Origin: a virus
DNA: 64,000 nt
Direction: 5' to 3' (one strand)
Virus record (IMG/VR): IMGVR_UViG_3300027969_000046
Shown here: positions 7,238 to 31,030 of the stretch, one piece after another
Layout of the letters: the number at the start of each line of letters is the position of its first letter
Position numbering within the stretch: position 1 is the first letter of the stretch
Notes under the pieces: generated by a model
The model's input: only the letters and a program-made list of their open reading frames with translations
Database searches by the model: none
Told to the model about the DNA's origin: nothing
Program-made: the position numbers and the translations under genes

Positions 7238-7425
7238 GTGAGTTTAAAAAGTTGCATGAGTTTACCGATGGCAACAAAACGGGACAAGTGTTCTTTACAA
7301 ATATTGGCAATCATAGGTTTATGGCCTTGCTTTATCAGGCTGATTTAGATTATAATGATGCTCAGTATTTTATAACAGAACAAGATGCCGAAGATTGTGC
7401 AGAAAATTGGGTGATGAACAAATGA
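7234..7425 (+). CDS. Hypothetical protein
   Basis: Coupled by ATGA overlaps on both sides. Confidence 0.7.
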   Translation: MSEFKKLHEFTDGNKTGQVFFTNIGNHRFMALLYQADLDYNDAQYFITEQDAEDCAENWVMNK

Positions 7426-7997
7426 GTGAAGAATTTATTATTGACACAGGCGCAGCCGTAGCTGAAGCCGAAAATATTACACCATTGCCATTGTTTGATG
7501 AGAATCATCCAATGTTAAAACAACCTATTCCAGTATTTGATGTTTATAAATTGCCAAGTCCTTTAACAACTAAACTTATTAAACGACTAAAGATGACTAT
7601 GAAATTACACAATGGTCTTGGTCTATCGGCAAATCAATGTGGTGTATTTGAAAGACTTTTTGTTATTGGTAGTGGTGACGATGTTTGGGCTTGTATTAAT
7701 CCAGAAATTCTTGCAACTTCGGATGATATTGTTAAAGACAAAGAAGGTTGCCTCTCTTTTCCAGGTTTATCTGTTATAATAGACAGACCAAGTTGGATTG
7801 AAGTTCAATACTTTGAAGAAAATGGAAAACAAGTTCAGAAGCGTTTTGAAGGCTTAACGGCAAGATGTTTTCAACATGAACTAGACCATATGAATGGCAT
7901 TCGTATGATTGATAAAGTTAAACCACTTGCATTACAAATGGCAAGAGATAGACAAAAGAAACTAATTAAGAAATTTATGAGATTACATAAACAATGA
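7422..7997 (+). CDS. def: Peptide deformylase
   Basis: GLGLSANQ, EGCLS, QHELDH motifs. Confidence 0.95.
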   Translation: MSEEFIIDTGAAVAEAENITPLPLFDENHPMLKQPIPVFDVYKLPSPLTTKLIKRLKMTMKLHNGLGLSANQCGVFERLFVIGSGDDVWACINPEILATSDDIVKDKEGCLSFPGLSVIIDRPSWIEVQYFEENGKQVQKRFEGLTARCFQHELDHMNGIRMIDKVKPLALQMARDRQKKLIKKFMRLHKQ

Positions 7998-9325
7998 TTG
8001 ATGCAAAAGCAGATATAGAAGAACAGTACCGCCAATGGCAGGAAGAAAATCCTGCTGAATCGTGGGTTGATGTTGATGAGAATGTTCTCAAAGAACAGGT
8101 TATCAACGACCTCTCCTATGTTTCAAAGATGGATGTAAAAGAATATACTCTGTATCAGAAGTGGTGTGAAGTAAAAGAGAAGTATCCCACGGTTGTTAAT
8201 CATACATTGTTCGGTGAAGAAACACAATTAGTTGACCCTAACCAACAGAAAGTTGTTGATGAAGTAAAAGATTCTATTTGGATCCCACAAACAGCCGAAG
8301 ATTATCTTAACCTTGAACCTGTGTTAGAATACACAGATGATTCTGGTAAAGATATGCAGATTGGTATTGATGGTTCTTCATTTGAAGTTGAGAAGAAAAG
8401 AAGCAAAGACTTACCTGAAAGATGGAATACTGTTCGTAATTTCATTTCAACAATGAAGAACAACAGTAACATTGGTCGCAACCTAAACTTCTTGGTTCGT
8501 GACCAGGTCACTAATAAGTATCTAGGTGTCATCTGCATATCATCTGACTTCTTAGACCTTACTCCTCGTGATGAAGTGATTGGTTGGCCTCGTGAACTAA
8601 AGACACAAGGCAGTATGATTAATCACACGGCAATCGGTTCTACTATTGTGCCATTCCAACCACTAGGTTTTAATTATGTTGGTGGCAAGTTACTTGCTTT
8701 ACTTTGTTTATCTGACGAAGTGCAAAGACTTTGGAAGAAACAATATGGTGATGTATTAGTTGGTGTAACAACAACATCATTGTATGGTAGAACAAAGGTT
8801 GATGGTCTATCACAGTATGATAACCTTGACCATTGGCAGAAGATGGGCTTCACGGCAGGTTCAGTATCATTTGAACCAAGTAGAGAAGTCCGTGGCAATA
8901 TCATTAATTGGTTAAAGAAGAATCATACTCGTAAATACTTTGAATGGTATGTTGCAAAGAAACCATCAGGTCAACCATACAAGCGTGACCATAAGAATCG
9001 CTCACTAGGTTTCACTTATAGTAAACTAGGTATTCCTAAAGAGTTGATTAGAACTGACCATGCTCGAGGCATTTACTTTTCACCATTGTATGATAACTCT
9101 TATGAGTTTCTCCGTGGTGAAATCAAAGAAGAACAGTTGGTAAAATCATTTGATACCAGTTACAAGGCCTTAGTTGACATTTGGAAAATCAAACACGCTA
9201 AAGGTCGTATCAAACAGTTGATGAAGAAAGACAGAGTATCATATGAAACATTATTCTATGATGACCTAATCTATCTTACATGGGAAGAAACAAAAGCCAA
9301 ATATCTGGCACAAGTTGGTAGATAA
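7994..9325 (+). CDS. DUF4338/DruA-like protein, probable GNAT/Mom-like fold (paralog 1)
   Basis: GRNLNFLVRD..TNKYLGVI, VPFQPLGFNYVGGKLLA, TTTSLYG..SQY..W..MGFT; clearly homologous to 29918..31030; family name is from recall. Confidence 0.65.
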   Translation: MIDAKADIEEQYRQWQEENPAESWVDVDENVLKEQVINDLSYVSKMDVKEYTLYQKWCEVKEKYPTVVNHTLFGEETQLVDPNQQKVVDEVKDSIWIPQTAEDYLNLEPVLEYTDDSGKDMQIGIDGSSFEVEKKRSKDLPERWNTVRNFISTMKNNSNIGRNLNFLVRDQVTNKYLGVICISSDFLDLTPRDEVIGWPRELKTQGSMINHTAIGSTIVPFQPLGFNYVGGKLLALLCLSDEVQRLWKKQYGDVLVGVTTTSLYGRTKVDGLSQYDNLDHWQKMGFTAGSVSFEPSREVRGNIINWLKKNHTRKYFEWYVAKKPSGQPYKRDHKNRSLGFTYSKLGIPKELIRTDHARGIYFSPLYDNSYEFLRGEIKEEQLVKSFDTSYKALVDIWKIKHAKGRIKQLMKKDRVSYETLFYDDLIYLTWEETKAKYLAQVGR

Positions 9326-9349
9326 TTAGGCAATGCTTTAAAAAAGCGC

Positions 9350-9378
9350 TTGATTTTCAAATAAAAAGCATATATAAT
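9350..9378 (+). promoter_or_regulatory. sigma70 promoter for the tRNA-like RNA
   Basis: TTGATT-17 nt-TATAAT with A-rich upstream sequence. Confidence 0.8.
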
Positions 9379-9394
9379 TATATACACAGAATAT

Positions 9395-9461
9395 GCGGTG
9401 GTTGTAGAACAGTTTGGGTGTCCAACTCAGGCGCTATGTGCGAATCATAGACACCGCTCCA
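9395..9461 (+). tRNA. Non-canonical tRNA-Gly(TCC)-like RNA with truncated D-arm
   Basis: Acceptor stem GCGGTG/CACCGC, discriminator T, encoded CCA; T-arm CTATG-TGCGAAT-CATAG; anticodon arm with loop TGTCCAA; only 67 nt. Confidence 0.85.
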
Positions 9462-9499
9462 ATTTTTCAAATAAATCTCCATTTATCGTTGAAAAGACT

Positions 9500-9531
9500 A
9501 GACCCTTACCGTAAAAAGTAAGGGTCTTTTT
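9500..9531 (+). terminator. Intrinsic terminator after the tRNA-like RNA
   Basis: AGACCCTTAC / GTAAGGGTCT 10-bp stem followed by a T-run. Confidence 0.85.
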
Positions 9532-9570
9532 ATTGCCTCAAATCTATTTTGGGTAGTGTATAATGGCTGC

Positions 9571-9753
9571 ATGATAGAAGATTACTCACACACCCTACTA
9601 GAACAGGAAGAAATGCACTTTTATTCCTGTGTTGCCGATGTTCTCCGTGCCTTTCAATGCCACGGTGCAAGTCATATCCTACATGAGGTTATGAAAAATC
9701 CTCAATTAAATCAAGAGCTTAGCGTGTTGTTTCCACGCAACACCAAGCCTTGA
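9571..9753 (+). CDS. Hypothetical protein, probably leaderless
   Basis: ATG 6 nt after TATAAT (9559-9564). Confidence 0.55.
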   Translation: MIEDYSHTLLEQEEMHFYSCVADVLRAFQCHGASHILHEVMKNPQLNQELSVLFPRNTKP

Positions 9754-9777
9754 CATTCCTCGTGGTTCGTGTATAAT
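9725..9777 (+). promoter_or_regulatory. Early promoter with upstream palindrome
   Basis: TGTTG-N8-CAACA, then TTGACA-16 nt-TATAAT(GGTTGTAT). Confidence 0.8.
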
Positions 9778-9805
9778 GGTTGTATAAATTAAGTAGAAAG
9801 ATACT

Positions 9806-12184
9806 ATGGCATTTACAGTCGAATCAAAATCCCAATTGGCAAAATTACTTGCCACAGAAAATTTAACAGTTGAGCACCAGAAGCTTAGCACGGCAAAATT
9901 TGATCCTATGAATCGTGTTTTGTATTGTCCTATCTGGAAAGATATGTCTGGCGCTTTATATGATTTGCTTATGGGTCACGAAGTTGGCCATGCACTTTAT
10001 ACTCCTGCCGATGGTTGGCATGATGCCGTTTCCTCTCTTGGTAGAAAATACAAAGGCTTCTTGAATGTTGTTGAAGATGCTCGTATTGAGAAAAAAGTTA
10101 AACGCAAATTTCCTGGTATTCGTACCTCATTTGTTAAAGGTTATCAAAACCTTTTAGAGCGTGATTTCTTTGGTATTAAAGAGCGTGATGTTAACGGAAT
10201 GTCATTTATTGACCGATTAAACATTTATACAAAATCGGCAGGTGCTATTCAAATTCTTTTTAACCATGAAGAAACAATGCTTGTTAAGCAAGTAGAAGCT
10301 TGTGAAACATGGGAAGATGTTTTACGGGTAACTAAATCTGTTTTTGATTATTCAAAGCATGAGCAATTTGAAACCATGTTACAGTCTTTGGCTTCTATGC
10401 AAGTTGACCAATTTGGTGATGGTGAAGATGGTGATGAAGATTACGATTCTGCCGATTCTGATTATGATGGCGAATCTGATATTGATGGTGATGATGGTGA
10501 TTCTTCAGAAGATGCCGATACCGATTCTGACGGCGATGCTGAAGGCGACAAAGCTGAAGCTAAAGGTAATTCAGAAAAAGACCTAGATGATTTTGAAGGT
10601 GATTATGGCGATGAAGTTGGTAATGAATTGAATCGTAATAAAGATTCTAAAGCATCCAACTTTGACCAGTTCCAACCTAGTTGTGAAACTGATGAGAATT
10701 TCCGTAAGAATGAAACTGAATTATTGTCAGCAGAATCCAAAAACTATGTTTATGGCAAAGTGCCTAAGCCTAACCTTGATGCTATCGTAACACCTGCTAA
10801 ACGGGTTCAACAAGCATTAAGTGAATATTATTTCAATAGCGATTATCGTGCTGAAAGCTTTGAAAAGCAATATACAGAAAAAGTAAAAGAATTCAAATCG
10901 AAGAATGACCGTTACATCGGTTTGTTGGCAAAAGAATTTGAAATGAAGAAAGCTGCTCGTGCTTATGCGAAGGCTAAAGTGTCCAATACTGGTGATATTG
11001 ATATCAATCGTTTATACAAATATCAGGTAGAAGATAACATCTTTAAAAAGATGATGAGAATCCCTAAGGGCAAATCTCACGGTCTGGTCTTGTTACTTGA
11101 CCGCTCAGGTTCCATGTCCCGTAATATGGCAGGTTCTATTGAACAGATTTTGGTTCTTACCATGTTCTGCCGTAAAGTGAATATTCCATTCGTTGTGTAT
11201 GGCTTTGGTGATTCTACTGATGGTCGTTTTGCTGATTATCCACAAGAACAATATAAAAAAGGTTTTACACCAGAAGCTAATGAGTTTGCATTTGAAACAG
11301 TATTTCTCCGTGAATATCTTAATTCAAAAATGAGTAATATGGATTTCAACAATTCAATCCGTAACATGATTGCTTTGCGTGATTCGTATAGTGTCGAAGC
11401 TCGTGGTCGTTATGGCATCGGTCGTCCTTCAAATGAACATCTTGGTAATACACCATTAATTCAGGCGATTGTTGCTCTTGAACCAATTACACAACAATTC
11501 CGCAAAGTGAATAACCTTGACTTGGTTAATCTGGTAATTGTTCATGATGGTGATGCTGATAATAGTAATTCAGTAATGCAAGAGCGTGATTGTTATGGTT
11601 GGGAAAATAAACCTGGCCAAAAAACGGTTCGTCCAAGTTCATTCAATCCTAAATCTGAGAATGTTTATATTAAAGACCGTGATTCTAAATTACAAGTTAA
11701 AGTAGAATCTTGTATTAATGATTCTTATTATACAGTAGAAGAAGGCTTGCGTATCGGTATTTTTGACTGGTACAAAGCAAAAACTGGTGCAAAGATTTTT
11801 GGTTTCTTTATTGCAGGTGGTACTGCTCGTGAAATGCGTGGCGGTATTACAAACAAATATATTGACAAGAATGGCAAAACAATTCGTGAGCAAGTTTATT
11901 CAGGTGATGTGAATGCTCGCTATTATCAATTAGACAAATCTGAATATGTTAAGACTATGGTCAAGAAATTGACAAGTGAAAAATTCTTGCAATCCTACAA
12001 TAAAGGTTACGATTCATTCTTTATTATGCCTGGTGGTAATGAATTGCAAATTGAAGATGATGAGTTGGTTGTAACTGGTGTGGTTACGGCAAGTAAGTTG
12101 AAAACGGCATTTATGAAAATGAATAAAAAGAAGGCAGTTAGCCGTGTGATGGTCTCTCGGTTCATTGATGGCATTGCTGCCTAA
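9806..12184 (+). CDS. HEXXH metallopeptidase-like / vWA (CobT-like) protein
   Basis: HEVGH and NVVEDARIE at the N-terminus, acidic linker, MIDAS LLDRSGSM...TP...DGDA. Confidence 0.85.
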   Translation: MAFTVESKSQLAKLLATENLTVEHQKLSTAKFDPMNRVLYCPIWKDMSGALYDLLMGHEVGHALYTPADGWHDAVSSLGRKYKGFLNVVEDARIEKKVKRKFPGIRTSFVKGYQNLLERDFFGIKERDVNGMSFIDRLNIYTKSAGAIQILFNHEETMLVKQVEACETWEDVLRVTKSVFDYSKHEQFETMLQSLASMQVDQFGDGEDGDEDYDSADSDYDGESDIDGDDGDSSEDADTDSDGDAEGDKAEAKGNSEKDLDDFEGDYGDEVGNELNRNKDSKASNFDQFQPSCETDENFRKNETELLSAESKNYVYGKVPKPNLDAIVTPAKRVQQALSEYYFNSDYRAESFEKQYTEKVKEFKSKNDRYIGLLAKEFEMKKAARAYAKAKVSNTGDIDINRLYKYQVEDNIFKKMMRIPKGKSHGLVLLLDRSGSMSRNMAGSIEQILVLTMFCRKVNIPFVVYGFGDSTDGRFADYPQEQYKKGFTPEANEFAFETVFLREYLNSKMSNMDFNNSIRNMIALRDSYSVEARGRYGIGRPSNEHLGNTPLIQAIVALEPITQQFRKVNNLDLVNLVIVHDGDADNSNSVMQERDCYGWENKPGQKTVRPSSFNPKSENVYIKDRDSKLQVKVESCINDSYYTVEEGLRIGIFDWYKAKTGAKIFGFFIAGGTAREMRGGITNKYIDKNGKTIREQVYSGDVNARYYQLDKSEYVKTMVKKLTSEKFLQSYNKGYDSFFIMPGGNELQIEDDELVVTGVVTASKLKTAFMKMNKKKAVSRVMVSRFIDGIAA

Positions 12185-13484: not shown

Positions 13485-13500
13485 TCTTCTGATTGGTAGT

Positions 13501-13527
13501 GGCCAGACTTAGGTCTGGTCTTTTTTT
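13501..13527 (+). terminator. Intrinsic terminator
   Basis: GGCCAGAC-TTAG-GTCTGGTC followed by T7. Confidence 0.85.
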
Positions 13528-13579
13528 GATTCTCGTTATATGGGAATTATTTTTAATCCTTTTTTATAGGAAATTTATT

Positions 13580-14971
13580 ATGAAACTTGCTACAAAACAA
13601 AATGCTATTACCGTTGGACTTAACAAAGAGTATCCTTTGATAAGTGATTTTATGACCACATTTAAAGATAAAGTTGGACTTGACTTATCTTTTAATCGAC
13701 TTGGTTGTTGGGAAGAAAAACAAAGAACTAAATTTGTAACTTCTTTAATTTTAGGACAAGCGCCATCCAAAATAATTGTGGCGAATGTTGAAGAATGTCT
13801 TGCTTTGTGTTTAGAAGGCACACTAGATTATGAATACTTTAAACACTGGCACGATTTAGGATTCAAATACATTGCAATTGATGGAAACAACCGAACTCAA
13901 ACAATTGAATTGTTTTTAAAAGGTAAAGTTAAACTTGAACACGGCATCTATATTTTGCCTACAGGTTCTGTTAATATCCACGCTAGTTGTGATACCTACA
14001 AAACAATGCCTAAGGTTCTTAAAGATTATATAACAGAGAACATTATGATTACTATTTGTGAGTATGTTGTAGCTACTCGAATGGGTTTATCTCGTTTGTT
14101 TACTAATATCAATGATGGCATGACATTAAATCCACAAGAATTGCGTAATGCTATTTTAGTTCCATTTGCTGATGCGGTTCGTAATATTGTAAATGACAAT
14201 ATGTCGGCATTTAGAACCATCTTCAAAGATAATGGTCGTTTAAAAATTGATGAACAAATTGTATTGATGGCAGTCTATTCAACCTTTGGTGCAGACCACG
14301 GTGTTTCAAAGAAAGATAAAGATGAAGCCTACGAAGATAATTCTGGTGTATGGATAAATTATTCTACACAAGGCGGTGAGAAACGCATTTTGGAAACATT
14401 AAAAATTATTGACAAATATACTACGAAGGCCTTTAAACAATCTTCAACACTATTAAATTTCTTTATGGTTATGGTTGAGTTGTCTAAACAGAAACGAACC
14501 ATTAAAGACAAAGAGAAATTAATGTCTTGGTTTTTGGCTACTGAAGCAGAGCGATTAGCAAATCCAGAAATTCTTGTTGAAAAGAAAAACGGCGAGTTGC
14601 GTAACTATGCCAGTTGTTGCGATGTTACAAGTGAATATACTTTGCCTGCTCGTTTGAATTTGATTCGTAAAGATATGGCAAAACTAGGCAATAACATTGT
14701 TACTGAATTGGATCCTGACCGACTGTTTACACCACAACAAAGATTCCAAATGTGGAAAAAACAAAACGGCATTTGTCCTGCCACAGGTAAAACAATCTCA
14801 CAAGATGAGATTAACAACCATGAATTGTGGAATGCCGACCATATCGTTGCTTGGGTTCTAGGCGGTGAAACAACTGTTGAGAATGGGCAACTTGTTTGTG
14901 CTAGTTACAACAAATCAAAAGGTAAAAAATCTCAGGCAGAGATGAAGAAAAAAGAGTTGATTGCCGCTTAA
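13580..14971 (+). CDS. DUF262 (ParB-like) plus C-terminal HNH nuclease, GmrSD-like architecture
   Basis: FNR..W, IDGNNR, FTNINDG..LNPQELRNA; C-terminal CPATG..ADHIVAWVLGGETTVENGQLVCASYN. Confidence 0.75.
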   Translation: MKLATKQNAITVGLNKEYPLISDFMTTFKDKVGLDLSFNRLGCWEEKQRTKFVTSLILGQAPSKIIVANVEECLALCLEGTLDYEYFKHWHDLGFKYIAIDGNNRTQTIELFLKGKVKLEHGIYILPTGSVNIHASCDTYKTMPKVLKDYITENIMITICEYVVATRMGLSRLFTNINDGMTLNPQELRNAILVPFADAVRNIVNDNMSAFRTIFKDNGRLKIDEQIVLMAVYSTFGADHGVSKKDKDEAYEDNSGVWINYSTQGGEKRILETLKIIDKYTTKAFKQSSTLLNFFMVMVELSKQKRTIKDKEKLMSWFLATEAERLANPEILVEKKNGELRNYASCCDVTSEYTLPARLNLIRKDMAKLGNNIVTELDPDRLFTPQQRFQMWKKQNGICPATGKTISQDEINNHELWNADHIVAWVLGGETTVENGQLVCASYNKSKGKKSQAEMKKKELIAA

Positions 14972-29325: not shown

Positions 29326-29921
29326 AACATAGAACGCTTTACAACAAGCTACATTCATTTGCCCCTAAGTTTGAAGGAGTAAAAACTAGAGGCCAAATAA
29401 TGTGGTGGGTTCGTAAGATGTTATTGCCTTATAATGTTAAAGTCAGTAGATTGATTGATAAAACAAATCAATGTGTTAGTGGTTTAACTATTGGTGGGTT
29501 CTATGACCCATCAGCCGATTATGATGAGAAGGACATTGAAATCTATTTAATGTTCCGTGAAGAACATAGTTGTATTTGGTTTGATTATTTGGATATTGAA
29601 GTAATGATTAATGAAATATTTAAAACATTAGTCCATGAAAAACGCCATCGTTACCAATTCAAACAAAGAGGACTTGCCTATGGGCCAGTTTACCGATTGT
29701 GTAAGAAGATAGAAGATGAAAATTTGGCAAACGAATTAAAATATTATGGTGACGCCGATGAGATAGATGCCTATGCTCAAGAGGCAATCATTGAAGAACG
29801 ACTATATGGACACTCGGATACTAAGGCTAAATATAAGGAACTATTTGACATCCATGATAAAAAGGTGTATAATAGCTTCTTAAAGAAATATTACACATAC
29901 GATAGAAAAGTTACCCTATGA
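29322..29921 (+). CDS. Hypothetical protein with HEXXH motif
   Basis: LVHEKRHRYQ...DEIDAYA. Confidence 0.6.
   Translation: MKHRTLYNKLHSFAPKFEGVKTRGQIMWWVRKMLLPYNVKVSRLIDKTNQCVSGLTIGGFYDPSADYDEKDIEIYLMFREEHSCIWFDYLDIEVMINEIFKTLVHEKRHRYQFKQRGLAYGPVYRLCKKIEDENLANELKYYGDADEIDAYAQEAIIEERLYGHSDTKAKYKELFDIHDKKVYNSFLKKYYTYDRKVTL
29845..29873 (+). promoter_or_regulatory. Consensus sigma70 promoter for DUF4338 paralog 2
   Basis: TTGACA-17 nt-TATAAT, inside the upstream gene. Confidence 0.8.
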
Positions 29922-31030
29922 ATTTGAGTAGAGAACAGGCAAACTATGTTGCCTCGGTGTTTGAAGATTACTTTGGTAACTTCAATCGAATTGATGAGTA
30001 TATGCGTGAGCAGAAACTTAACTCATTGAAAGATTGGCCAGTGGCATTACCAGGATGTGGACCTGAAGAAGATTTGTTTTCAGATTTCAATATGGATCCA
30101 CAAAACATGGAGTTTGATATCGTTGACCTCGAATCACAGAGGTGGCAACAATACTTAGATATCATTTCTTCGCACAATAACCTTACATCACCTGGCCGTA
30201 ATGTTAGACTAGCAGTATTAGAAAAGACGACTCAGAAGTGGGTTGGTTTTATTCGTATCGGTTCTCCAACTATTATGATGAAGCCTCGCAATCAGTTACT
30301 TGATTGTGTTATCACTAATGAAACTGCAACGACCAAATCATTCAATAATGCTTCTGCAATGGGTTTCGTTATCGTACCTGCACAACCATTTGGTTACAAC
30401 TATCTTGGTGGTAAGTTACTTGCTGCTATCTGTTGTTCACATGAAGTCCGTGAAATTCTCAATAAGAAGTATAATATGAATATGTGCTTGTTTGAAACCA
30501 CATCTTTGTATGGCACATCAAAGGCTATCTCACAATATGATGGTATGAAACCATATTTACGATTCAAAGGTGTAACTGAATCAGATTTTCTACCAATGAT
30601 GCACGGTAAACCATATGATGACCTCAAAAATTATGTTGAAGGTATTGTTGGTGAGTTTGTTCCGCCTGATGCCTCTAGCCGTAAGTTAAAGATTAGTACC
30701 ACAATCATTGCTATGACCAAGGCTGCATTGAAACCACATAAAGAAGATTATGATAGGTTCATGGCTACAATCAACAAGGCCAAGTCCCTAACAGAACAGA
30801 AGCGATACTATGTGTCCAACTATGGTATTGCAAACTATAAAGATATTGTTCTTGGAAAAACCTCTGAGATTGTCAAAGATGAGAACTATGATAAACACTA
30901 TTTGGCTAACATTACAGAGTGGTGGAAGAAGAAAGCATCTGCTCGCTTCGTATCATTAAAACAACAGGCCAAGGTCAGGACAGAGATGGAAGTATGGACA
31001 AGTGGCAAAGTCCTTGACATAATCCGTTGA
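29918..31030 (+). CDS. DUF4338/DruA-like protein, probable GNAT/Mom-like fold (paralog 2)
   Basis: PGRNVRLAVLEKTTQKWVGFI, VPAQPFGYNYLGGKLLA, ETTSLYG..SQYDG. Confidence 0.65.
   Translation: MNLSREQANYVASVFEDYFGNFNRIDEYMREQKLNSLKDWPVALPGCGPEEDLFSDFNMDPQNMEFDIVDLESQRWQQYLDIISSHNNLTSPGRNVRLAVLEKTTQKWVGFIRIGSPTIMMKPRNQLLDCVITNETATTKSFNNASAMGFVIVPAQPFGYNYLGGKLLAAICCSHEVREILNKKYNMNMCLFETTSLYGTSKAISQYDGMKPYLRFKGVTESDFLPMMHGKPYDDLKNYVEGIVGEFVPPDASSRKLKISTTIIAMTKAALKPHKEDYDRFMATINKAKSLTEQKRYYVSNYGIANYKDIVLGKTSEIVKDENYDKHYLANITEWWKKKASARFVSLKQQAKVRTEMEVWTSGKVLDIIR

What the first reader, a model, noticed from the sequence alone, without database searches (positions are those of the whole stretch)
7994..9531. 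Candidate new system: GNAT/Mom-like DUF4338 enzyme plus its own non-translating tRNA-Gly as glycyl donor
SEEN: 70 nt after the DUF4338-like gene is a stand-alone unit: promoter (9350-9378), a 67-nt CCA-ending tRNA-Gly-like RNA (9395-9461), terminator (9500-9531). A second DUF4338-like paralog lies at 29918. KNOWN: GNAT-fold enzymes such as FemABX use aminoacyl-tRNA as the acyl donor, and staphylococci keep dedicated non-proteinogenic tRNA-Gly for that purpose. From recall (needs verifying), phage Mu Mom, a GNAT-fold protein, was reported to transfer glycine from Gly-tRNA-Gly to adenine N6 in DNA. INFERENCE: this phage makes a private Gly-tRNA, hidden from translation, to feed one or both DUF4338 proteins, most plausibly for anti-restriction DNA hypermodification. 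The GNAT/Mom fold is inferred from motif order (GR..strand-hairpin-GxI; VP.QP.G.NY.GGKLLA helix; TTSLYG..SQY..G.T).
Basis: partly seen in the sequence, partly recalled or inferred. Interest (0 to 1): 0.92.

Follow-up and report, generated by a model that had tools for sequence, protein, structure and literature searches.

The report
Phage mini tRNA-Gly beside GNAT gene
A freshwater T4-like phage carries a conserved, unannotated 67-nt miniature tRNA-Gly that keeps the marks needed to be loaded with glycine but has lost the parts needed for translation. It sits right after a DruA-family enzyme whose nearest solved structure is phage Mu Mom, which uses Gly-tRNA to modify DNA, so the RNA may be that enzyme's private glycine donor, though this is not shown.

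Summary
Window 9395-9461 is a real RNA gene with its own promoter and terminator, 69 nt after a 443-aa Pfam DruA/DUF4338 gene. ARAGORN and Rfam both miss it. I found 71 distinct homologues (63-70 nt) in related IMG/VR phage contigs. They covary strongly (91-93% of cells paired, against 36-50% in slid controls). G1-C72, C2-G71, G3-C70, U73, CCA and a loop 'CC' are invariant or nearly so, which matches the bacterial glycine identity set. None has a canonical UUC T loop or a G18G19 D loop, and 17 have a 4-nt 'anticodon' loop. Many carry UGC in the T loop, as staphylococcal non-proteogenic tRNA-Gly do. The covariance model cross-hits only tRNA-Gly among phage tRNAs.

The RNA lies either after DruA1 (62 of 77 loci) or in the tRNA cluster beside a canonical tRNA-Gly. 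All five large contigs of the second kind also encode both DruA paralogs. The protein is a confident GNAT fold. Mom ranks first in three structure searches, but within one Z unit of ordinary GNATs, and profile comparison finds no sequence similarity.

DruA homologues in cyanophages and bacteria lack the RNA, so the link holds in one phage clade only. The glycyl-donor idea is plausible (about 0.3) but unproven. The scan's own first-stage notes had already flagged this RNA on this window.

The parts
7994..9325 (+). DruA1: a 443-aa DruA/DUF4338-family GNAT protein. It has an N-terminal extra domain (about 1-100), a GNAT core (about 103-290), and a helical insertion (about 297-352) before the last strand. 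Its start overlaps the stop of the peptide deformylase gene (7395..7997).
9350..9378 (+). Sigma-70-type promoter of the RNA gene (TTGATT, 17 nt, TATAAT).
   Evidence: Scan. The TATATAATTATAT -10 block recurs upstream of the RNA in homologous loci.
9395..9461 (+). 67-nt mini tRNA-Gly-like RNA. It has a 6-bp acceptor stem plus a G.A mismatch, a 3-bp D stem with loop GUAG, and an 8-bp anticodon-like stem with loop GUCCA (7-nt reading U-G-UCC-A-A). The T stem is 5 bp with loop UGCGAAU. The discriminator is U, and CCA is encoded.
   Evidence: The model scores it at 85 bits (R1) and 75 bits (R2). This is the only hit in the window.
9500..9535 (+). Intrinsic terminator of the RNA unit.
   Evidence: Hairpin plus T-tract terminators also follow the RNA in homologous loci.
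29918..31030 (+). DruA2: a 370-aa paralog (phrog_19197) with no RNA gene beside it.
   Evidence: The covariance model finds no second copy in the window.

Best explanation
The 67-nt RNA is a phage-encoded, non-decoding derivative of tRNA-Gly.

It is transcribed early from its own sigma-70 promoter, or from the tRNA cluster in related phages. It is matured like a tRNA, with CCA encoded. It is probably glycylated by the host GlyRS, because the glycine identity elements are the only invariant positions. With no D/T-loop elbow and a non-canonical anticodon loop, it is probably poorly used by the ribosome.

The most likely use is as a protected pool of activated glycine for a tRNA-dependent transferase. 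The prime candidate is the adjacent DruA-family GNAT (DruA1, perhaps also its paralogs). DruA1 would then work like Mu Mom, or like Fem transferases with staphylococcal non-proteogenic tRNA-Gly. The acceptor would most plausibly be DNA, given where DruA genes sit.

What is shown: the RNA family, its structure, its conserved positions, its genomic contexts, and the GNAT fold. What is inferred: charging, exclusion from translation, donor function, pairing with DruA1, and the acceptor.
For: **The RNA**
- Among 71 distinct RNAs, 70 start GCGG and all 71 end UCCA. The loop CC and the G53-C61 pair are also invariant, while the stems covary.
- These positions match the bacterial Gly identity set: U73, G1-C72, C2-G71, C35 and C36 (PMC9976931).
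- 0 of 71 have UUC in the T loop, against 13 of 13 neighbouring canonical phage tRNA-Gly. 27 have UGC or UGU, the hallmark of staphylococcal non-proteogenic tRNA-Gly (PMC7826273).
- 17 of 71 have 4-nt loops. The window RNA has G33.
- Model R2 hits only tRNA-Gly among more than 20 tRNA types in phage clusters.
- A complete 169-kb genome (G003) has the mini RNA plus canonical tRNA-Gly GCC and UCC.
- The cultured pelagimyophages HTVC008M and Mosig each give a single model hit, an aberrant 74-nt tRNA-Gly(ACC).

**The link to DruA**
- The RNA lies 50-70 nt after DruA1 in 62 of 77 evaluable loci.
- All 5 large contigs with the RNA in the tRNA cluster encode DruA1 and DruA2 elsewhere.

**The protein**
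- Mom is proven to use Gly-tRNA-Gly (PMC13219725).

**A DNA-related setting**
- DruA-type genes sit in replication modules.
- They occur next to HU-like genes in bacteria.
- They are fused to DndF (PMC10853773).
Against: - There is no sequence-level relation to Mom. Pfam Mom does not hit DruA1, and hhalign of the two family alignments gives probability below 1%.
- Mom's structural lead is within 1 Z unit of acetyl-CoA-dependent GNATs.
- DruA1 keeps a Q-x-x-G...GGK segment at the position where GNATs bind the CoA pyrophosphate. This is my own reading of the alignment.
- Four of five cyanophage genomes with DruA2-type genes have no model hit. The fifth has only a 75-nt hit.
- Four distant DruA loci have no tRNA-like gene within 6 kb.
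- Contig G001 (133 kb, 75% complete) has DruA1 and canonical tRNA-Gly genes but no mini RNA.
- 15 of 77 DruA1 loci lack the adjacent RNA.
- All positive associations come from one related phage clade, so they are not phylogenetically independent.
- One T4-like contig carries both a DruA-like gene and a true Mom gene, so the two are not simply interchangeable.
- Strong avoidance of CGCG, GATC and ACGT suggests the DNA is not broadly shielded by modification.
Confidence: 0.3

Rival explanations
1. The RNA is a decoy or sponge that acts independently of DruA. It mimics the acceptor end of tRNA-Gly and titrates a host factor acting on (Gly-)tRNA-Gly, or GlyRS itself. Candidate factors are TacT-type GNAT toxins that acetylate Gly-tRNA-Gly, or nucleases that cut tRNA 3' tails. 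Its position next to DruA1 would be inherited synteny.
For: The RNA also lives in tRNA clusters far from DruA genes, and some genomes carry tandem copies. DruA homologues outside this clade have no such RNA. The variable elbow and loops suggest only the acceptor end and the CC are read. tRNA-Gly-specific toxins and tRNA-tail nucleases are documented (PMC9976931 cites TacT; PMC12851939).
Against: No tRNA-Gly-targeting defence is known in the unidentified freshwater host. A decoy for an anticodon nuclease would keep a canonical anticodon loop, and many members do not. A repeated placement with a private promoter and terminator directly after DruA1 in 62 of 77 loci is not explained.
Confidence: 0.2
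2. The RNA is a glycine donor, but for a different reaction. One option is that DruA1 glycylates proteins, as an N-terminal aminoacyl-tRNA-protein transferase working after the co-transcribed peptide deformylase. Another option is that a different phage or host enzyme uses the RNA.
Against: Deformylase is a common auxiliary gene in marine T4-like phages without any tRNA link. FemA scores below many plain GNATs. DruA-family contexts elsewhere point to DNA.
Confidence: 0.15
3. The RNA is a structurally reduced but still decoding tRNA-Gly that supplements translation of GGN codons.
For: It sits in tRNA clusters and is spaced like a tRNA, 1-7 nt from the next tRNA. The window's loop U-G-UCC-A-A is one base away from the canonical U-U-UCC-A-A of the neighbouring phage tRNA-Gly. 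D-arm-reduced tRNAs do decode in mitochondria (PMC7609411).
Against: 17 of 71 members have 4-nt loops, and others have G33 or C37. None has the G18G19 or T-Psi-C elbow. It usually sits right beside a canonical tRNA-Gly(UCC) that already does the job. Bacterial ribosomes and EF-Tu are not adapted to armless tRNAs (PMC12221289 describes the special mitochondrial EF-Tu that is needed).
Confidence: 0.1

Closest known systems
Staphylococcal non-proteogenic tRNA-Gly (NP1-3) feeding FmhB/FemA/FemB
   Same: These are extra tRNA-Gly paralogs that keep GlyRS charging but lose translation features. The T loop has UGC/UGU instead of UUC, there is no G18G19-type elbow, and the anticodon is UCC. The partner enzymes have GNAT-type folds (PMC7826273).
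   Different: The staphylococcal RNAs are full-size cloverleaves of a cellular lineage restricted to staphylococci, and they serve cell-wall synthesis. The RNA here is 63-70 nt with a 3-bp D arm, often has a 4-5-nt loop, and is encoded by T4-like phages of Gram-negative freshwater and marine hosts. Its partner and acceptor are unknown.
Phage Mu Mom (PF25680) with host Gly-tRNA-Gly
   Different: No sequence or profile similarity is detectable. Mom uses host tRNA and has no private RNA. I could not map equivalents of R111 and S124. DruA1 is twice as long, with an extra N-terminal domain. One phage contig encodes both families.
DruA of type I Druantia (PF14236/DUF4338)
   Same: DruA1 belongs to this Pfam and padloc family. 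The Aravind laboratory calls the domain a GNAT (PMC10853773).
   Different: No DruB-E genes are present. The neighbours are a deformylase gene, a CobT-like gene and T4 replication genes. The protein is phage-encoded rather than a host defence component. The biochemical function of DruA itself is unknown.
D-arm-reduced or armless mitochondrial tRNAs
   Same: They are similar in size and share the loss of the D/T-loop elbow (PMC7609411, PMC6158502).
   Different: Those RNAs decode with co-adapted mitochondrial factors. The RNA here coexists with a canonical isoacceptor, and its loop is often too short to decode.

Membership tests
Canonical decoding tRNA | Recognised by tRNA finders and the Rfam tRNA model | tested here: not met
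   ARAGORN finds 0 genes in the window. Rfam gives no tRNA match at E<=10.
Canonical decoding tRNA | D loop with G18G19 and T loop with U54-U55-C56 forming the elbow | tested here: not met
   The D arm is a 3-bp stem with a 3-4-nt loop. 0 of 71 have UUC in the T loop, against 13 of 13 neighbouring canonical tRNA-Gly.
Canonical decoding tRNA | 7-nt anticodon loop with U33 and a purine at 37 | tested here: not met
   The window RNA has G33. Other classes have C37, and 17 of 71 have 4-nt loops.
Bacterial tRNA-Gly identity set (GlyRS substrate) | G1-C72, C2-G71, G3-C70, discriminator U73, C35 and C36, 3' CCA | tested here: met
   70 of 71 start GCGG, 71 of 71 end UCCA, and the loop CC is invariant. 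The identity set is taken from PMC9976931. Actual charging was not tested.
Non-proteogenic tRNA-Gly (staphylococcal type) | T loop UGC/UGU instead of UUC | tested here: met
   The window T loop is UGCGAAU. 27 of 71 members have UGC or UGU, and the rest have AGC, UUU, UUA or UGA (PMC7826273).
Non-proteogenic tRNA-Gly (staphylococcal type) | Weak EF-Tu and ribosome binding, and preferential use by a transferase | not testable with these tools
   This needs biochemistry.
Pfam DruA / DUF4338 | HMM score above the gathering threshold | tested here: met
   DruA1 scores 81.5 bits and DruA2 38.3 bits, against a cutoff of 27.
Druantia type I system | Operon with DruB-DruE, including the DruE helicase | tested here: not met
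   The neighbours are a deformylase gene, CobT- and CobS-like genes and T4 replication genes.
GNAT superfamily | GNAT fold | tested here: met
Mom family (PF25680) | Sequence or profile membership | tested here: not met
   The Pfam scan at E<=1 lists no Mom hit. hhalign of A2 against the Mom alignment A5 gives probability 0.3%.
Mom family (PF25680) | Closest structure, and a helical insertion before the last strand | tested here: inconclusive
   Mom ranks first in three searches but within 1 Z unit of other GNATs. An insertion is present in the model at 297-352.
Mom family (PF25680) | Catalytic R111 and S124 equivalents, and use of Gly-tRNA-Gly | not tested
   No residue-level superposition was available. 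Activity needs an assay.
Fem / L,F-transferase aminoacyl-tRNA transferases | Fem-type (duplicated GNAT) fold | tested here: inconclusive

The most novel reading that the evidence does not exclude
T4-like pelagimyophage-type phages encode a dedicated non-proteogenic mini tRNA-Gly. Host GlyRS charges it, and DruA-family GNATs consume it to glycylate DNA or another macromolecule. That would make DruA/DUF4338, including Druantia DruA, a second family of aminoacyl-tRNA-dependent nucleic-acid-modifying GNATs after Mom. It would also be the first virus-encoded private aminoacyl donor.
Probability: 0.25. Interest if true: 0.92.

Novelty: new variant of a known kind. Interest (0 to 1): 0.8.

Why it matters
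Dedicated non-translating tRNA-Gly have so far been reported only in staphylococci (PMC7826273). A widespread viral family would be a second, independent case, and by far the smallest.

The RNA is invisible to standard annotation. ARAGORN and Rfam miss it. HTVC008M is tabulated with 0 tRNAs, and Mosig annotates an ORF over its copy.

If the RNA feeds the neighbouring GNAT, this would give DruA/DUF4338 its first biochemical handle. The role of that domain in Druantia defence is unknown. It would also extend the tRNA-dependent DNA modification just shown for Mom. Both ideas can be tested directly with a 67-nt transcript, GlyRS and one recombinant protein.

Tried and rejected
- **Known RNA and tRNA finders.** Rfam at E<=10 over 9200-9700 gave only chance sRNA rows. 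ARAGORN found nothing in the window.
- **Nucleotide searches of GenBank phages.** Megablast and blastn with the locus found nothing.
- **Sequence search of the PDB.** The family profile gave only noise.
- **Comparison with Mom.** hhalign against Mom alone and against a 39-member Mom alignment was not significant. The only aligned scrap was an 'RGVY'-type motif at the end of the helical insertion of both families. That is a lead, not evidence.
- **Foldseek.** E-values never passed 0.001.
- **ESM Atlas feature search.** It gave only sub-0.9 leads: the protein's own family and 'GNAT-phage-like'.
- **Metatranscriptomes.** Contigs from four lake runs cover parts of the DruA1 and CobT-like ORFs but not 9210-9798. 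These are contigs of standard libraries, so they say nothing about whether the small RNA is made.
- **Distant DruA homologues.** Four loci and five cyanophage genomes were scanned for the RNA, with no hit except one 75-nt match that I did not characterise.
- **Whole Logan contig behind L218.** It could not be searched because it is not held.
- **EF-Tu T-stem rules.** I considered using them, but the neighbouring canonical phage tRNA-Gly are also AU-rich in the T stem, so the comparison does not discriminate.
- **Ideas rejected.** A 3' mRNA processing signal or an integration-site remnant does not fit, because the RNA has its own promoter, covaries in all four helices and keeps the Gly identity positions.
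Full report
**What is at the locus.** The window is the replication and recombination module of a T4-like phage: UvsW, gp47/gp46, gp45, gp44, DNA polymerase, UvsX and gp41. Its closest cultured relatives are the Pelagibacter myophages Mosig and HTVC008M, at 62% and 56% protein identity for the gene in question. Near-identical DNA occurs in freshwater and lake metagenomes.

ORF 7994..9325 (443 aa, here called DruA1) matches Pfam DruA/DUF4338 at E 8e-23. A paralog at 29918..31030 (DruA2) matches at 1e-9 and is 39% identical over the core. The RNA lies 69 nt after the DruA1 stop. In order there is a TTGATT-17-TATAAT promoter (9350-9378), the 67-nt RNA (9395-9461), and a hairpin plus T-tract terminator (from 9500). 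ARAGORN finds no tRNA anywhere in the window, and Rfam gives no tRNA match.

**The RNA is real and belongs to a family.** Fetching 80 IMG/VR loci through DruA1 and looking downstream showed a GCGG...CCGC-U-CCA element on the same strand in most of them. On a 14-sequence alignment with a four-helix structure, 93% of cells are paired, against 36-50% when partners are slid. 14 of 22 pairs change on both sides, and no shuffle reaches the observed values. A 36-sequence set gives 91% against 37-49%. Single-sequence folds of several divergent members give the same four-way junction independently.

Two covariance models were built. Together with a DruA-independent pattern scan of IMG/VR, they yield 71 distinct RNAs of 63-70 nt.

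**What is conserved and what is lost.** The invariant or nearly invariant positions are G1, C2, G3 (G4 in 70 of 71), the 3' strand CCGC, the discriminator U, CCA, two Cs in the anticodon-like loop, and the G53-C61 pair. These are the bacterial glycine identity elements: U73, G1-C72, C2-G71, C35 and C36 (PMC9976931).

Everything that builds the tRNA elbow is gone or variable:
- The D arm is a covarying 3-bp stem with a 3-4-nt loop and no GG.
- The T loop is never UUC. It is UGC in 25 members, AGC in 24, UUU in 13, UUA in 4, UGA in 3 and UGU in 2. All 13 canonical phage tRNA-Gly caught in the same search have UUC.
- The anticodon-like hairpin has a 5-nt loop in 54 members and a 4-nt loop in 17.
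- Read as 7 nt, the window's loop is U-G-UCC-A-A, with G at the universal U33 position. Other classes have C at position 37.

The UGC/UGU T loop is the known mark of staphylococcal non-proteogenic tRNA-Gly (PMC7826273).

The model's only cross-hits in phage tRNA clusters of more than 20 tRNA types are tRNA-Gly genes. This independently ties the family's origin to tRNA-Gly.

**Where the RNA sits.** There are two contexts.
- **After DruA1.** The order is deformylase, DruA1, RNA, CobT-like, as in the window. This holds in 62 of 77 DruA1 loci with enough downstream sequence. The RNA usually has its own -10 box and terminator, and some loci have two tandem copies.
- **In the tRNA cluster.** Here the RNA lies 1-7 nt from a canonical tRNA-Gly, usually UCC. 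I searched five large contigs of this kind, and all five encode both DruA1- and DruA2-type genes elsewhere.

A complete 169-kb genome has the mini RNA plus canonical tRNA-Gly GCC and UCC, so the mini RNA is not a replacement.

HTVC008M and Mosig lack the mini RNA. Each gives one model hit, an unannotated 74-nt tRNA-Gly(ACC) with an aberrant T loop and no GG in the D loop. It lies a few kb downstream of DruA1. The literature tabulates HTVC008M with 0 tRNAs (PMC7029224).

Ordinary acetyl-CoA GNATs follow within 1 Z unit, aligning about 135-150 residues. So the GNAT fold is established, but Mom-likeness is only a consistent nominal best.

At sequence level nothing links the families. Mom transfers Gly from Gly-tRNA-Gly to N6 of adenine in dsDNA, with R111, S124 and a helical insertion essential (PMC13219725). 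DUF4338 has independently been called a GNAT (PMC10853773).

**Tests of the coupling.** Outside this clade the association fails.
- Four of five cyanophage genomes with DruA2-type genes have no model hit. There the gene sits between the clamp-loader genes gp44 and gp62.
- Four distant DruA loci, two of them bacterial and next to HU-like and Mrr/GmrSD genes, have no tRNA-like gene within 6 kb.
- One T4-like contig has both a DruA-like gene and a true Mom gene in its clamp-loader module.
- One 133-kb contig (75% complete) has DruA1 but only canonical tRNA-Gly.

All positive co-occurrence therefore lies within one lineage and may be inherited. The window also avoids short palindromes strongly: CGCG 0 against 26 expected, GATC 27 against 229, ACGT 14 against 111. 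That is not what one expects of broadly hypermodified DNA.

**Verdict.** The pattern of keeping GlyRS identity while losing decoding features is best explained by a charged, non-translating tRNA-Gly mimic. The adjacent DruA GNAT is the only visible candidate consumer, and the Mom and Fem precedents make a glycyl-donor role the single most likely mechanism (about 0.3). A DruA-independent decoy role, a different acceptor, or residual decoding all remain open. No step linking the RNA to the enzyme has been shown.

Noticed in passing
window 1-64000: Short palindromes are strongly avoided: CGCG 0 (26 expected from trinucleotides), GATC 27 (229), ACGT 14 (111) and GTAC 64 (178). All 27 GATC sites lie within GGATC or GATCC.
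   Followed up: partly
L084:1501-1574 (HTVC008M 91140-91213) and L083:1501-1574 minus strand (Mosig 7779-7852): Both cultured pelagimyophages carry an unannotated 74-nt tRNA-Gly(ACC)-like gene with a non-canonical T loop (AGCGUUA or GGCAGUA). Mosig annotates a 31-aa hypothetical ORF over it. ARAGORN calls the HTVC008M copy but not the Mosig copy.
   Followed up: partly
L218:6001-7212 and L218:10041-10868: A 66-kb T4-like contig encodes a DruA-like gene next to a gp44-like clamp-loader ATPase gene and, a few kb downstream, a true Mom (PF25680) gene directly before the gp62-like clamp-loader gene.
   Followed up: no
L210-L214 (cyanophages S-SCSM2R, S-SM2, S-SSM7, S-B68, S-CAM9): In four of the five cyanophages the DruA2-type gene lies between the clamp-loader genes gp44 and gp62; in S-B68 it lies near gp47. 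One record labels it 'methylcarbamoylase mom', although it is a DruA-family protein, not a Mom-family protein.
   Followed up: partly
window 13493-14971: A 492-aa phage protein has a weak GmrSD_N (DUF262-type) match and a C-terminal HNH nuclease. Padloc matches NsnA at 3e-13.
   Followed up: no
window 9556-9753: A small ORF (60-65 aa) lies between the RNA terminator and the CobT-like gene. A TATAAT box sits just upstream of its ATG, so it may be leaderless. The stretch is about 85% identical at DNA level in L003-L010. It has no Pfam or PHROG match.
   Followed up: partly
L056:4320-4530: In this relative, the space after DruA1 holds a GC-rich, structured-looking stretch instead of the mini tRNA. 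It might be another RNA element.
   Followed up: no
L217:5710-7389 and L220:5783-7659: In these two contigs outside the phage clade (one from a GenBank genome assembly), the DruA-like gene is preceded by a small HU-like DNA-binding gene and lies near Mrr- or GmrSD-type restriction genes.
   Followed up: no
L082:4007-4144, L118:287-430, L151:1955-2094, L158:4120-4259, L166:4377-4516: Some relatives carry two different mini tRNA-Gly genes in tandem, 3-7 nt apart, after DruA1.
   Followed up: partly
window 8820-9208 and 9799-10000: Contigs from lake metatranscriptome runs of four studies between them match parts of the DruA1 and CobT-like ORFs at 95-100% identity. DNA carry-over cannot be excluded.
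   Followed up: partly
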